A DNA stretch of 64,000 nucleotides from Eledone cirrhosa. Its lineage: Eukaryota. Shown here one piece after another: positions 53,691 through 59,543 of the stretch. The notes below the pieces were generated by a model. It worked only from the letters and a program-made list of their open reading frames with translations, was not told where the DNA came from and made no database searches. The stretch lies in the NCBI GenBank assembly GCA_964016885.1, contig OZ024743.1, positions 269,576,001 through 269,640,000 on the forward strand. The letters run 5' to 3'. Position numbers and translations under genes: made by a program. The number at the start of each line of letters is the position of its first letter. The first letter of the stretch is position 1.

Positions 53691-54039
53691 GACTGGCCAG
53701 TCTGCTGATATGCAAATCTGGCTGATCAGTGGATCTGCTAATATGCAAATCTGACTGATCAGTCACTGTGTATTTTAGAAAATAGCATATATTTTCACTA
53801 GCTTTTGCAGTTGGCAGGTGAACAGTGAGCTGTACTGATGAAGGGTGATACCCAGAAACATTAGTGTCTGCAGTTCTGTTTACATGCCAACACAAGAGCA
53901 AGAATGAAGGGTTCATTCTACTGACATGGCTTTAAAAATGAGGCTTGTTTGTATAATTGCAAACGAATCGAATGTTATTATTAATATTCGAAAAACTCAG
54001 ATTACATTTATTGTATTCAGCCGTGTAGAGCGAAAATTT
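53691..54039 (+). mobile_element. ~350-bp HHR-bearing element family R1, copy 1
   Basis: Starts at the gactggccagtc palindrome, has two ATGCAAAT repeats and an HHR, and ends in (TA)n. Four more copies at 58.0-59.5 kb. Confidence 0.85.
53810..53891 (+). ncRNA. Complete type I hammerhead ribozyme (GTC site at 53866-53868)
   Basis: gagctgta-CTGATGA-a-gggt-gat-accc-a-GAAA-ca-ttag-t-GTC-tgcagttc. Helix I extends through a bulge via gtgaaca/tgtttac and gttggca/tgccaac. Confidence 0.85.
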
Positions 54040-55494
54040 ATATATATATATATATATATACATATATATATATATATATATATATATATATATATACTTA
54101 CATATATGTATATACATATGTGCGTGTTCGTGTATGCATATGCATTGTATGTTTGTATATATGTGGGCGTGTACATATACGTCTATACATATATGTATGT
54201 GCATGTGTGTTCGTAGGTATTTCCAGATGTTTCTATATATTTCTAAGTATCTATATATCTGAACACTCATTTTATATATCTACGTATTAATAATTGTGCA
54301 GATATATGTACTGGTATATATATATAGATGCATGTATAGATGCATGTAAGTTTATATTCATACACAGGCATATGCAGATACATATGCACACATACATACA
54401 CATGCACACATACATATACATTCACCCATGTATACATACATATATACATACATAACATTGTTGTACGCTTTGTTAAGTGGATGTAATTAAAATATTATTT
54501 CACACACACACAAACACGCACATACAGAGACACACATACTCACACAGACACACATATATATGTGTGTGTGTGTGTATGTATATATATATATATATATATA
54601 TATATATATATATACACATACATACACACACACATATATATGTGTGTGTGGGTGTGTGTCTGTGTGAGTGTGTGTGTCTCTGTGTGTGCGTGTGTGTGTG
54701 TGTGTGTCTATGTGTGCGGAAGAACTCATAAGAGACAACAGCCATCCAAAAGTGTGTAAATATGTATATACACATGTACATATGTATGTATATGCGTGGG
54801 GACATACTCCATAACGAGGGAGCAGTCACATACATATATATATATATATAAATATATGTATATATGTATATATTTATATATATATATATATATGTATATA
54901 TATATGTATGTATCTGTATATATATTATACATATATACATACATACACATACACATACATACACACACACATACATACACACATATATATATAAATATAT
55001 ATACACGGTATATGTTTTAACTTATATTATAATTATATATATATATATATATATATATATATATATATATATATATATATATATATATATAGAGAGAGAG
55101 AGAGAGAGAGAGAGAGAGAGAGAGAGAGAGAGAAATTTTTATATGGGCAACGCGAGAAAATAATAGATGTAAAAGAAATATGCGTTTCGATGTTGTGGAA
55201 CAAAATCATAGTAGAATGTACGCAGTAGAAATTTATTGGAGGAAGCACTTCACCTAATAAGCCATATATATCACTAACTTATTAGTACATACGCGTTAGC
55301 TCTCTTCACCTCGTCAAATGACACAACATACTGCTGAAGTTCAATTTCACTTTCTCTCGTATTCATAAAAGTCTTTCAATGTTTCTTAAGTCAACCATTT
55401 TGTTTACACTTCTAGCTACATGAGTTGGTGGCCATGGGCTCTTTAATGTAGTCGTTATGGCTTACACTCGATTCCTTGCACGGGGGAAGAGTCC

Positions 55495-55705
55495 TCAAAT
55501 ACTCCTTCCAACGGGTCCTGTCAGAAGCAGCCATCTACAATTGGTGTGGTTGGATCCCACAACGAGACCAACCGAGTCCATGGATGTTATCCAATCATCT
55601 TGCTCAGAGTCTACCCCTGGATTTCATGCTGGTTAGTTTTGACCGTAAAATTGGTCCTTTTTTGAGGCATTTTAACCACATGCCTGTAATATCGGAGCTG
55701 TGATC
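55495..55705 (-). mobile_element. RTE-like LINE 3' fragment
   Basis: Homologous to 26868-27065 (aaatactccttc..gggtcctgtca...ggatgttatccaa...atcggagct). Confidence 0.65.
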
Positions 55706-56185
55706 TCACAAATCACAAAATACAACGAGCTTAAACTAACCTAAACTCATCACACAAAATACAATTACTCAGTTAAATAGAATTAATAGTAAAACTACAA
55801 TCGAAAAGCTCTTCACGCCAAAGACATAATACTTCCACTCAATCCTCGGCATAAAAGTCAGCATATAACAATCAAAAGATAAAGATATCTATCTACCTCT
55901 CTACTCAGGTGATTCTGTTAGACTAAAGCTAGTTCCATATGGGCTATAACTTGATACAACAGTTAAAAATGGCCGTAATTGCTGTGTCGTGAGAACGAGA
56001 CACATTTTCAACGTTTTAGGCAATATCTGATATTTGAAAGTGATGTAAGATTGCTGCCCGACATATTAGATAATTCCAGGTGTCTCCACGAATTCTACAG
56101 TTTGATCATTCTTATATTAGATTGGACCAATGATAAAATATTTCATTATTCAATTGAACCATCCTTAACAGTATCTTCTACAATA

Positions 56186-56373
56186 GGTGGATTGGTAGTA
56201 TCGGTAGACGGTCGGACGCCATGCTTTGACGCATAGAGTTACGGCCCTTGCCATTCTGAATTCAAATCCTGCCGAGGTTAACTTTGCCTTTCATCCTTAC
56301 GGGGTCGATAAAATAAAGTACCAGTAATGCACTGGGTAATTGCTGGCCTTGTGCCAAAAGCAGAAACAATTAT
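56186..56373 (+). mobile_element. Full-length SINE-A
   Basis: Near-consensus copy. Confidence 0.9.
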
Positions 56374-57604
56374 TTATTTAAAGCAGCAGGATTGTATGAA
56401 CTATGAAAAACGGAACTTTGGTTGTTTGTCTTCTAAAGTAATTTTGCTATTTTTAGTCTAGCATGAATTGTATAAATATGAATAAAGTAAGTTAGTTTCT
56501 TTATGTTGTTTGCAGTTGTTTATATTTGTTGTTGTTATTGTTTCATCAGATAAGGAAGCAGATGCGATGTCTGGCTAATGTAGCAATTATTGTGGAATTT
56601 GTAACCCGCATCTGGGTAATTAAATTCATGGGAGGCATTGATGACTAAGACGCAGAAGTCAACTACGTTTGAGGCAACGGAGTGCAGTTACATCTCACGA
56701 ACTCCCTAATTTCTATTTAATTTGTAATTATAAGGAGACGTTTTTTGTCATTATGAAACACATAGCATTGCATCAACTTTTTTTTGATTGTTTGTAATAA
56801 ATTACCGGCAACTTGTTGGGCAGTTTAGTTATTATAGTCTAGGACAACCTATTGTTTTACAGACGGAATATGGAATAAGTAATATTCGGTTTCTTCTTCA
56901 AACTTATGTTCGTTGATGTACGTACGTACTTACATATGTATGTATGTATGTATGTATGTATGTATGTATGTATGTATGTATGTATGTATGTATGTATGTA
57001 TGTATGTATGTATGTTTGTATGTATGTATGTATGTATGTATGTATGTATGTATGTATGTATGTATGTATGTATGTATGCTTCACGGCACAGGCATTGCTT
57101 TATATCTGGAGATCTCTCTGCTCTTGTTGTCACATGGTACCATGGGCCCAGCACTATGTGTCAATAGTGTCACAAGTGTAGTGTTTGTACCAGAGTTTTC
57201 AAGTCGCTGGCTGGACTAAAAAGTCACACTGTTTCAGCGCATCGGTAGGGGTTCTCCTACATGGATATAAAGTAGTGGCCGTACTCGAAAACGATTTGGC
57301 AGCCACCATGTATGTATGTATGTATGTATGTATGTATGTATGTATGTATGTATGTATGTATGTATGTATGTATGTATGTATGTATGTATGTATGTATGTA
57401 TGTATGCATGTATGTATGCATGTATGTATGTATGCATGCATTATGTATGTATATATGTATGCATGTGAAATCAATCGTATATATATATATGTATATACAT
57501 TCAAATATATATATGAGAGAGAGAGAGAGACTCACGCACGCATGCATGTATATGTATATATATATATATATATATATATATATATATATATATATATATA
57601 TATA

Positions 57605-58000
57605 TATTTATTAAAATAACAGATTAAAGTTTAAGCAAAGAATCGCTGCTTTCACCCTTAACGGGATCTTCGGAAACTAACAAAGTCAATCTGTGAACGC
57701 AGAAGTGAATATTTCAAAAAACGATGCAACCGGAGGAAGACAGGAAGACGATACTTTGGTTCGTGGAAACGTTCCCTGGCAAAGAACGGGAAAAAACGAT
57801 ATAATACGTCATTATTTGGAGCGGTGAAAAACAATTACACGCAAAGACAAAACCACGTTTATGGTATAAAAGAAGTCGTAGACTAATATTCTATTAGGAG
57901 GTTCATAGAGACGTTATCTGGCAATGAACGGAACACACGAAAAGGCTGAAAGCAGCGATTCTTTGCTTAAACTTTGGTATAAAAGAAGTCGTAGACTAAT
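57605..58000. mobile_element. Inverted-repeat element F2, copy 2 (right arm truncated)
   Basis: Near-identical to 38504-38880. Confidence 0.85.
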
Positions 58001-58014
58001 ATATATATATATAT

Positions 58015-58620
58015 AATCTGAGTTTTTTGAATATTAATAACATTCAATTCGTTTGCAATTATGCAAACAAGCCTCAATTTTATAGCCATGTCAGTAGAAT
58101 GAACACTTCATTCTTGCTCTTGTGTTGGCATGCGAACAGAACTGCAGACACTAATGATTCTGGGTATCACCCTTCATCAGTACAGCTCACTGTTCACCTG
58201 CCAATCTGTCAGAGCTAGTGAAAATATATGCTATTTTCAAAAATACACAGTGACTGATCGGCCTGATTTGCATAATAGCAGACTGGCCAGTCTGCTGATA
58301 TACAAATCTGGCTGATCAGTGGATCTACTAATATGCAGATCTGATTGATCAGCCAGTCTTCTAATATGCAAATAAGGCCGATCAGTCACTGTGTATTTTT
58401 GACAATTTGGCAGGTTAACAGTGATCTGTACTGATTAAGGGTGATACCCAGAAAGATTAGTATCTGCAGTTCTGTTCGCATGCCAACACAAGAGCAAGAA
58501 TGACATGGCTATAAAATTGAGGCTTGTTTGCATAATTGCAAACGAATAAAATGTTATTAATATTAAAAAAACTCAGATTATATTTATTTTATTCAGCCAT
58601 GTAGAGCAAAATTTTCTTTT
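58015..58620. mobile_element. Head-to-head inverted pair of R1 elements (copies 2 and 3)
   Basis: Axis at gactggccagtc 58281-58292. HHRs at 58139-58188 (-, GAAA changed to GAAT) and 58423-58472 (+, CTGATTA). Confidence 0.85.
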
Positions 58621-58771
58621 ATATATATATATATATATATATATATATATATATATATATATATATATATATATATATATATATATATATATATATATAT
58701 ATATATATATACATTCATATATATAAAAGAGAGAGAGAGAGACACTCACACACGCATGTATGTATATATAT

Positions 58772-59543
58772 AATCTGAGTTTTTCGAATATTAACAATAA
58801 CATTCGATTCGTTTGCAAATGTACAAAGAAGCCTAATTTTTATAGCCATGTCAGTAGAATGAACCCTTCATTCTTGCTCTTTTGTTGGCATGTAAACAGA
58901 ACTGCAGACACTAATGTTTCTGGGTATCACCCTTCATCAGTACAGCTCACTGTTCACCTACAACTGTCAGAGCTAGTGAAAATATATGCTATTTTCTAAA
59001 ATACACAGTGACTGATCGGCCTGATTTGCATATTAGCAGACTCGCTGATCAGTCAGATCTGCATATTAGCAGATCCACTGATCAGCCAGATTTATATATC
59101 AGCAGACTGGCCAGTCAGTTTCCTGTATACGAGGGAGGAAATGGCCGGCTTTGTAACATTTAAAAAAGAAAATTTCTTCCTACATGGCTGAATACAATAA
59201 ATGTAATCTGAGTTTTTCGAATATCAATAATAACATTCGATTCGTTTGAAATTATGCAAACGAGCCTCATTTTTAAAGACATGTCAGTAGAATGAGCCCC
59301 CTCATTCTTGCTCCTGTGTTGGCATGTAAAGAGAACTGCAGTCACTAATGTTTCCGGGTATCACCCTTTATCAGTACAGATCACTGTTCACCTGCCAACT
59401 ATCAGAGCTAGTGAAAATATATGGTATTTTCTAAAATATACAGTGACTGATCGGCCTGATTTGCATATTAGCAGACTGGCTGAGCAGTCAGATCTGCATA
59501 ATAGCAGATCCACTGATCAGCAAGATTTACATATCAGCAGACT
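58772..59543 (-). mobile_element. Two tandem R1 elements (copies 4 and 5)
   Basis: 58772-59116 and 59161-59543; HHR positions are 434 nt apart. Confidence 0.85.
58899..58948 (-). ncRNA. Complete type I HHR (R1 copy 4)
   Basis: Exact reverse complement of 53827-53876. Confidence 0.85.

What the first reader, a model, noticed from the sequence alone, without database searches (positions are those of the whole stretch)
53691..59543. R1: a ~350-bp non-coding mobile unit with a complete hammerhead ribozyme and octamer repeats (retrozyme-like)
Seen: five copies (53691+, 58015-, 58281+, 58772-, 59161-), no ORF, mostly abutting (TA)n. The HHR has all three helices, a GTC site and a ~22-bp bulged helix I. 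It is intact in two copies and core-mutated in three. Known: a bulged helix I contacting loop II is the architecture of fast natural type I HHRs such as Schistosoma Sm-alpha, and metazoan non-LTR retrozymes are short HHR-bearing repeats that yield circular RNAs. Inference: a retrozyme-like family mobilised by Penelope RT/EN; I do not recognise it as described. Caveat: an extra A.A pair sits between the core and helix II.
Basis: partly seen in the sequence, partly recalled or inferred. Interest (0 to 1): 0.9.

Follow-up and report, generated by a model that had tools for sequence, protein, structure and literature searches.

The report
Self-cutting RNA repeat, Penelope-copied
This is a protein-free repeat of about 437 bases, present in thousands of copies, that carries a predicted self-cutting RNA enzyme and inserts the way Penelope-type jumping genes do, and its broken copies often begin just after the predicted cut, a likely trace of the cutting having happened in living cells.

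Summary
It is a 434-444-nt head-to-tail monomer; two of the five 'copies' are one tandem joined by a missed linker. The genome has 1,104 exact ribozyme cores and an estimated 10,000 fragments. Insertions have Penelope-like (PLE) anatomy: a fixed 3' end in (TA)n, random 5' truncation, inverted partners, and a 30-40-nt tail on one arm only (49 of 53 pairs). No ORF and no autonomous partner were found. This is a non-LTR retrozyme, a known class, apparently undescribed in this lineage. Two extras. (1) 5' ends pile up just 3' of the predicted cut (33 of 94 copies; 3- to 6-fold the background rate), and the two arms of one insertion stop or cross together (24 of 29). A second retrozyme family in this genome shows no such pile-up. 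(2) The octamer repeats adjoin the word found at -58 of this genome's U1/U2 genes, predicting a start 53 nt before the cut; newt satellite 2 is the precedent, and this scan noted the promoter layout earlier on other DNA of this genome. Cleavage, transcription and circles are untested; the A.A pair is the family's master state.

The parts
53691..54038 (+). Insertion 1: single 5'-truncated arm (monomer positions 226 to 169, +1 = first base after the predicted cut), two of the three 33-bp repeats, intact hammerhead, tailed 3' end running into (TA)n
53701..53767 (+). 33-bp repeats, each an octamer-like word followed by ATCAGT; last ATCAGTCACT at 53758 matches the -58 word of U1/U2 genes
53786..53795 (+). 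TATA-like stretch between the ATCAGT word and the predicted start at 53816 (inferred)
53810..53891 (+). Type I hammerhead: helix I 53810-53834 with 53869-53891; core 53835-53841; helix II 53843-53853 flanked by extra A at 53842 and 53854; GAAA 53855-53858; helix III 53858-53867 (self-complementary); predicted cut after 53868
54007..54038 (+). PLE-type tail beyond the short 3' end (monomer 145-169)
58007..58287 (-). Insertion 2, short-ended arm (298 to 144), core-mutated hammerhead, ends in (TA)n
58281..58622 (+). Insertion 2, tailed arm (227 to 180), inverted against the previous arm, two internal deletions, core-mutated, ends in (TA)n
58764..59543 (-). Insertion 3: one 784-nt head-to-tail arm (1.8 monomers) with predicted cut sites at 59341 (mutated) and 58907 (intact), 434 nt apart
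59118..59160 (-).
   Evidence: same linker in loci L019, L042, L046, L050
59588..59606 (+). Short inverted fragment of the element's repeat region beyond the (TA)n at the 5' end of insertion 3
   Evidence: seen directly

Best explanation
R1 is a protein-free repeat of about 437 nt with a hammerhead motif, found in thousands of dispersed and short head-to-tail copies that end in (TA)n with Penelope-type tails and inversions; it is likely transcribed from its own snRNA-like promoter, likely cuts its own RNA, and is likely copied back into the genome by a Penelope-like reverse transcriptase/endonuclease supplied in trans. Shown: unit, copy number, insertion anatomy, excess of 5' ends just after the predicted cut. 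Inferred: RNA polymerase II starts about 53 nt before the cut site and reads through into the next unit; part of the RNA is cleaved (probably helped by pairing of two helices III), part stays uncleaved or is ligated to a circle; a PLE enzyme nicks (TA)n and primes twice on one RNA (short end and tailed end), giving an inverted pair whose arms stop at the cleaved end, or run past it when the template is uncut or circular.
For: Monomers of 434-444 nt between successive cut sites in the window and four other loci. 1,104 exact cores, 1,906 and 4,184 exact matches to two other parts, reversed controls 0; about 5,000 hammerheads and 10,000 3' ends after correcting for divergence (23/105 and 68/161 exact). 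217 of 294 arms end at one of two fixed places, 180 of these 217 run into (TA)n; 49 of 53 inverted pairs with two canonical ends have one short and one tailed arm (p 7e-11 against 50%), the PLE pattern in PMC8557442 (passages). 56 of 294 arms exceed one unit. 5' ends in +18..-2: 33 of 94 (19.7 per kb at risk against 3.5 upstream of the site) and 13 of 46 in a second, partly overlapping sample (15.4 against 4.8 before and 4.6 after). In 29 pairs where both arms reach the site, 8 both stop, 16 both cross, 5 differ (Fisher p 0.0013); of the other zones only the adjacent one shows a weak signal, and arm lengths are otherwise uncorrelated. Core intact in 69 of 98 passes not selected on the core. 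A profile from 8 U1/U2 upstream regions picks the last ATCAGT as best site in the monomer (0/200 and 1/200 shuffles as high).
Against: No cleavage, transcript or circle was observed. The predicted lowest-energy fold is an off state (-37.1 against -30.6 kcal/mol) and the A between C11.1 and G12 is outside the consensus; Rfam finds no hammerhead. The pile-up did not replicate in the second family R2 (5 ends in 1,384 nt at risk against 27 in 7,737), and 26 of the 33 pile-up ends are inversion junctions in a self-complementary stretch. Covariation is weak: 6 of 29 pairs with a double change, 15/500 shuffles as high, slid controls 2-5. The promoter score is modest: 8 unrelated sites in the window score as high, and the U6 profile does not single out R1. 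No autonomous partner with a matching 3' end was found. In the 2026 preprint 8 of 9 predicted Xenopus retrozyme dimers did not cleave in vitro. Arrays are short: longest arm 991 nt of 294.
Confidence: 0.8

Rival explanations
1. Same element, but the ribozyme is dead or irrelevant: the 5'-end pile-up comes from reverse-transcriptase stalling or fold-back on helix I and short palindromes, and tandems come from read-through RNA or template jumping rather than circles.
For: Predicted off-fold and non-consensus A.A; no pile-up in R2; most pile-up ends are inversion junctions (26 of 33); arrays rarely exceed two units.
Against: The excess stops sharply at the cut site, in the middle of the helix, and is absent from the long repeat hairpin; it is also seen at genomic flanks (7 of 38); concordance between arms is confined to that zone; core and both extra A are kept across subfamilies.
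Confidence: 0.25
2. The copies are solo or partial pseudo-LTRs shed by a rare autonomous PLE, with no independent life cycle.
For: All insertion hallmarks are those of autonomous PLEs; only about 300 of ~10,000 arms were read; three loci join an R1 arm directly to PLE coding sequence without a microsatellite (L030/L324, L046, L088).
Against: Arms longer than a unit continue into the same circle (56 of 294); among 82 copies anchored on the 3' end none showed a shared upstream sequence other than the monomer, its inverted partner or a SINE (read by eye); the three joined PLEs are different families with 3' ends unlike R1, and 0 of 23 other copies of one of them lie beside R1.
Confidence: 0.08
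3. Transcription is by polymerase III from a U6-type promoter (octamer about -77, TATA about -30), ending at the T-run near monomer position 172-178; the short cleaved product explains both the pile-up and the tailed end, and tandems need rare read-through.
For: 3 of 6 non-redundant U6 upstreams have TATGC(A/T)AAT at -77..-79 and R1 has the octamer 46 nt before a TATA-like word; three other hammerhead families here score 14-18 bits on the U6 profile.
Against: R1 itself scores no better than shuffles on the U6 profile; it has the U1/U2 word instead; sister-subfamily copies end at the same tail position without a T-run; 61 of 94 arms cross the site and many include the promoter itself.
Confidence: 0.2

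Closest known systems
Metazoan non-LTR retrozymes (Cervera and de la Pena 2020, PMC7229834, Results parts 1-2 and passages read; Li, Clavereau and Pollet 2026, bioRxiv 10.64898/2026.07.22.740005, parts 1-3 of 5 read, supplements closed)
   Same: Non-coding head-to-tail unit in the 150-450 bp range, GC 39%, type I hammerhead per unit, no LTR/PBS/PPT, highly self-paired monomer (z -6.2), many monomeric copies; mismatch at the base of helix II has a precedent (U.U in axolotl HHR_Amex2, weak as monomer, efficient as dimer).
   Different: Mostly dispersed truncated arms rather than long arrays; A.A instead of U.U; explicit PLE tail/inversion anatomy and a 5'-end excess at the cut site, which the text I read does not report; circular RNA not shown here; no cephalopod mentioned in the 2020 main text (0 hits), and the 2026 study covers 31 vertebrates, 3 insects and 1 coral.
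Endonuclease-bearing Penelope-like elements and their pLTR hammerheads (Craig et al. 2021, PMC8557442, passages; Cervera and de la Pena 2014, PMC4209133, passages and Discussion)
   Same: [quoted passage not shown]
   Different: No RT/GIY-YIG ORF; long 22-bp helix I rather than a minimal hammerhead; second extra nucleotide before G12; partner enzyme unknown.
Newt satellite 2 (Coats, Zhang and Epstein 1994; paper not held; seen only as title and citing sentence in PMC2220036)
   Same: Hammerhead repeat with an internal snRNA-type promoter used by polymerase II.
   Different: Here the promoter is only predicted, is triplicated as a 33-bp module, and uses this genome's own U1/U2 word; that the newt start lies ~46 nt before the cut and uses an octamer is my recall, not checked.
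Schistosoma Sm-alpha (passage in PMC6765202)
   Same: Short dispersed and tandem repeat with a type I hammerhead, promoter in one unit drives the next.
   Different: Sm-alpha has a polymerase III tRNA-type promoter; R1 has no tRNA head of its own; fast cleavage and loop-loop contact not shown for R1.

Membership tests
Non-LTR retrozyme | Short (150-450 bp) head-to-tail unit, low GC, no ORF | tested here: met
   434-444 nt, GC 39%; only a 52-54-codon antisense frame from ATG, none on the sense strand
Non-LTR retrozyme | Type I hammerhead in each unit | tested here: met
   All helices and core present, with two extra A; core intact in 69 of 98 passes; not recognised by Rfam models
Non-LTR retrozyme | [quoted passage not shown] | tested here: met
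   2 same-strand pairs of perfect cores 437 and 444 bp apart among the first 100 listed hits; the window's own tandem has one mutated core
Non-LTR retrozyme | Self-cleavage of the RNA | not testable with these tools
   Only indirect: 5'-end excess at the site; absent in control family
Non-LTR retrozyme | Expression as linear and circular monomer RNA | not testable with these tools
   No RNA run was available to lay
PLE-mobilised element | Fixed 3' end, 5' truncation, inverted partner, tail on one end only, microsatellite target | tested here: met
   217/294 canonical ends, 180/217 into (TA)n, 49/53 short+tail pairs
PLE-mobilised element | Sequence link to the pLTR of an autonomous PLE | tested here: inconclusive
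   No match in the PLE fragments of about 330 loci and 24 copies of one family; whole genome could not be screened
Autonomous PLE | RT plus GIY-YIG ORF | tested here: not met
   Arms continue into the circle, not into coding sequence
snRNA-type promoter | Host PSE word at the right distance from a start, with transcription from it | tested here: inconclusive
   U1/U2 word and spacing present (13.2 and 9.4 bits; training 5.5-31; 8 unrelated window sites >=9.4); transcription untested
Fast canonical type I hammerhead (Sm-alpha type) | Loop I-loop II tertiary contact and monomeric fast cleavage | not tested
   Loop II is GAT in the main subfamily and AATC in the sister subfamily; no contact modelled
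tRNA-derived SINE | tRNA-like head with A and B boxes | tested here: not met
   None in the monomer by inspection; ARAGORN finds no tRNA in the window; a separate SINE inserts into R1

The most novel reading that the evidence does not exclude
The genome itself records ribozyme activity: each inverted R1 insertion was copied twice from one RNA molecule by a Penelope enzyme, and whether that molecule had already cut itself can be read from where both arms stop. This would be genomic evidence that a hammerhead with an A.A pair at the base of helix II cleaves in the germ line, that retrozymes use the PLE twin-arm reaction, and that cleaved linear RNA as well as circles serve as templates, all driven by a captured, triplicated U1/U2-type promoter.
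Probability: 0.45. Interest if true: 0.72.

Novelty: new member of a known kind. Interest (0 to 1): 0.52.

Why it matters
What hammerheads do in Penelope elements and how animal retrozymes move are open questions: PMC4209133 states an absence of in vivo evidence, PMC8557442 calls HHR function in these PLEs unclear, and the 2026 preprint argues the PLE link from co-occurrence and pLTR trees. R1 adds insertion-level evidence for PLE mobilisation and a countable footprint at the cut site that can be tested on all ~10,000 arms and in vitro. If the A.A core cleaves, hammerhead search models (Rfam missed it) are undercounting animal ribozymes. The class itself is known, so this is an extension, not a new system.

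Tried and rejected
Rfam scan: no family at gathering score in the window; no hammerhead at E<=10 over 53600-54100. Public runs: no RNA holder listed, so expression is untested; small-share runs X7-X10 gave 1-8 contigs each and were not used as evidence. Partner search: a PLE-specific Pfam family was not in the library; 24 copies of one Neptune-like family have a different 3' end and hammerhead remnant, and only the query locus lies beside R1; an apparent shared end motif in L088 was a truncation and was dropped. A genome-wide count of tandem dimers could not be run; only the first 100 listed cores were counted. Replication of the pile-up in family R2 failed (internal tandem units were counted as crossing, which dilutes it). 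U6-type profile for R1: not significant (139/200 and 86/200 shuffles as high); two of ten U1/U2 upstreams lacked the exact word and were left out of the profile, and two of the eight kept are near-duplicates. A snRNA 3'-box reading of the 3' end was considered and dropped (one mismatch, recalled consensus). Simple fold-back as the source of inverted pairs is not favoured: median distance between arm ends 124 nt, only 16 of 61 within 25 nt. Papers not held: Coats 1994, Cremisi 1992, Lunse 2017. Literature searches for a prior description: 'hammerhead ribozyme'+'octopus' (5 papers, listing only, none on this), 'hammerhead'+'cephalopod' (129 papers, top 20 listed, nearly all sharks), 'retrozyme'+'promoter'+'snRNA' (4, listing), cleavage-site truncation terms (1 review), and 0 mentions of ribozyme or retrozyme in a 2026 octopus repeat annotation (PMC13282606, passages). 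Repbase/Dfam were not searchable, so the family may be catalogued under another name.
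Full report
Observation. Two window copies have an intact core and three do not. Six of the seven exact octamers in the window lie in these copies. Rfam has no hit at gathering score in the window and no hammerhead at E<=10 over the first copy.

The unit. The copies at 59161- and 58772- are one arm: a 43-nt linker (59118-59160) joins them head to tail, and the predicted cut sites at 59341 and 58907 are 434 nt apart. 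Four other loci give 434-444 nt, one gives 614 nt because of a SINE insertion. The window therefore holds three insertions with four arms. The monomer is 39% GC, has no sense ORF of 40 codons from ATG and folds far better than shuffles (z -6.2).

Abundance. The genome (3.0 Gb; probably an octopod, inferred from recalled features only) holds 1,104 exact copies of the 34-nt core, 1,906 of a 23-mer after the cut and 4,184 of a 25-mer at the 3' end, with 0 for each reversed control. Exact-match rates in independently picked copies (23/105, 68/161) give about 5,000 hammerheads and 10,000 3' ends. A sister subfamily with loop II AATC has 301 exact cores and dominates in a run labelled as another organism (2,748 contigs laid).

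Insertion anatomy. Of 294 arms of 60 nt or more from pattern-picked loci, 114 end at monomer 136-153 and 103 at 160-186; 180 of these 217 run into (TA)n; 42 end at 104-130 (31 before a SINE) and 35 elsewhere. 56 arms exceed one unit (longest 991). Of 104 inverted pairs, 53 have two canonical ends, and 49 of those have one short and one tailed arm (p 7e-11). PMC8557442 (passages) lists exactly these features for PLEs: 5' truncation, partial tandems, an inverted 5'-truncated copy, a 30-40-bp tail often at one end only, and microsatellite bias. No arm was seen to continue into a shared coding sequence. Three loci join an R1 arm directly to truncated PLE coding sequence; in L324 a tailed R1 arm faces a 5'-truncated RT plus GIY-YIG element that ends in (TA)n, the geometry of a hybrid pair. 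These belong to different families and one tested family has an unrelated 3' end, so the partner is unidentified.

Footprint at the cut site. In 94 copies picked on a 23-mer just downstream, 33 begin within +18..-2 and 6 of the remaining 61 in the next 21 nt; rates are 19.7 against 3.5 per kb at risk (p 4e-10). In 82 copies picked on the 3' end (partly the same loci) the rates are 4.8 before, 15.4 in and 4.6 after the zone (p 0.0014 and 0.0017). In 61 inverted pairs not picked on the core, 29 have both arms reaching the zone: 8 both stop, 16 both cross, 5 differ (p 0.0013). The adjacent zone gives p 0.03, the others nothing, and arm ends are otherwise uncorrelated. This fits two primings on one RNA that is either cut or not. 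Against: ends spread over 20 nt rather than at +1, 26 of 33 are inversion junctions in self-complementary sequence (7 of 38 genomic-flank ends against 26 of 56), and a second retrozyme family in this genome shows no excess (3.6 against 3.5 per kb, 79 anchors).

The ribozyme. In copies not picked on the core, 69 of 98 passes have the core intact; the two extra A are present in 102/103 and 107/109, so A.A is the master state, not decay. An extra nucleotide between 9 and 10.1 and a palindromic helix III are PLE hammerhead hallmarks (PMC4209133); axolotl HHR_Amex2 has U.U at the same place and cleaves weakly as monomer and well as dimer (PMC7229834). Here helix III is unstable alone (+1.7) but two copies form a 10-bp duplex (-8.8), and the predicted lowest-energy fold pairs the core with helix III (-37.1 against -30.6), an off state. 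Covariation over 41 copies of two subfamilies is weak (6 pairs with double changes, 15/500 shuffles; slid controls 2-5; helices II and III were fixed by the selection pattern).

The octamer repeats. 8 of 10 non-redundant U1/U2 upstream regions have (A/G/C)TCAGT at -57..-59, and 3 of 6 U6 regions have TATGC(A/T)AAT at -77..-79. R1's 33-bp unit holds both words; ATCAGTCACT and GATCAGTGGAT occur letter for letter before U2 genes. A U1/U2 profile ranks the last ATCAGT first in the monomer (13.2 and 9.4 bits; 0/200 and 1/200 shuffles) and predicts a start at 53816, 53 nt before the cut; 8 unrelated window sites score as high, so this is suggestive only. The U6 profile does not single out R1 but does three other hammerhead families, which have the octamer and a TATA-like word at similar spacing (14-18 bits). 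Polymerase II is preferred for R1 because a run of 6-7 T lies inside the unit yet copies span it. Newt satellite 2 is reported to use an snRNA-type promoter (title and citing sentence in PMC2220036). Two earlier notes of this scan on other pieces of this genome reach the same promoter reading; I saw them after my own test, and a sequence look-up of R1 found nothing.

Verdict. A new family of a known class, the animal non-LTR retrozymes, whose PLE origin was argued in a 2026 preprint (supplements closed, so its family lists were not seen). What this locus adds is insertion-level evidence for PLE mobilisation and a testable footprint of self-cleavage that did not replicate in one control family. 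Cleavage, transcription, circles and the partner enzyme remain untested. Interest 0.52.

Noticed in passing
L020:2400-3150 and G000 genome-wide: A second, far more abundant retrozyme family (R2): 466-nt unit, U.U at the base of helix II, palindromic ACTAGT helix III, U6-like octamer and TATA; 18,838 exact 21-mer hits with arrays of 3-5 units.
   Followed up: partly
L166, L204 (R3) and L040 minus strand (R4): Two more extended type I hammerhead families with TATGCAAAT(T/G)AG and a TATA-like word 44 nt later, scoring like real U6 promoters (15-18 bits).
   Followed up: partly
monomer position 109/110 in many loci (L007, L276, L155); free copy at window 56160-56370: An abundant tRNA-head SINE (Nin-like by recall) is inserted at one fixed ATTATT site of R1 in 31 of 294 arms, with variable duplications of up to about 18 bp, which looks like repeated independent targeting.
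   Followed up: partly
L324:124-3640 (G000:C1:44016600-44021600): Apparent hybrid insertion: tailed R1 arm inverted against a 5'-truncated Neptune-like PLE that ends in (TA)n; similar direct junctions in L046 and L088 with other PLE families.
   Followed up: partly
window 57607-57995 and 38500-38760: Another non-coding PLE-like element with a hammerhead-like motif (CCGAAGA...GAAA on the minus strand at 57673 and 38573), inverted-pair structure, next to insertion 2.
   Followed up: no
window 45244+, 62948+, 63761-: Minimal hammerhead motifs of other PLE families; many PLE hammerheads in this genome have a mismatch at the base of helix II.
   Followed up: no
window 47802-48248 (+) and 40517-42151 (-): Naiad-like GIY-YIG and RT fragments (clade label by recall).
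   Followed up: partly
U1, U2 and U6 loci (L051-L070, L156-L173), about -260: A shared upstream word TTACCTCCCTT in all three snRNA gene types, absent from R1; U6 genes here have an octamer at -77 and lack the U1/U2 word.
   Followed up: no
window 57496-57550 and 58710-58765: A ~55-bp low-complexity stretch occurs twice, bracketing the 57607 element and insertion 2; possibly an old duplication.
   Followed up: no
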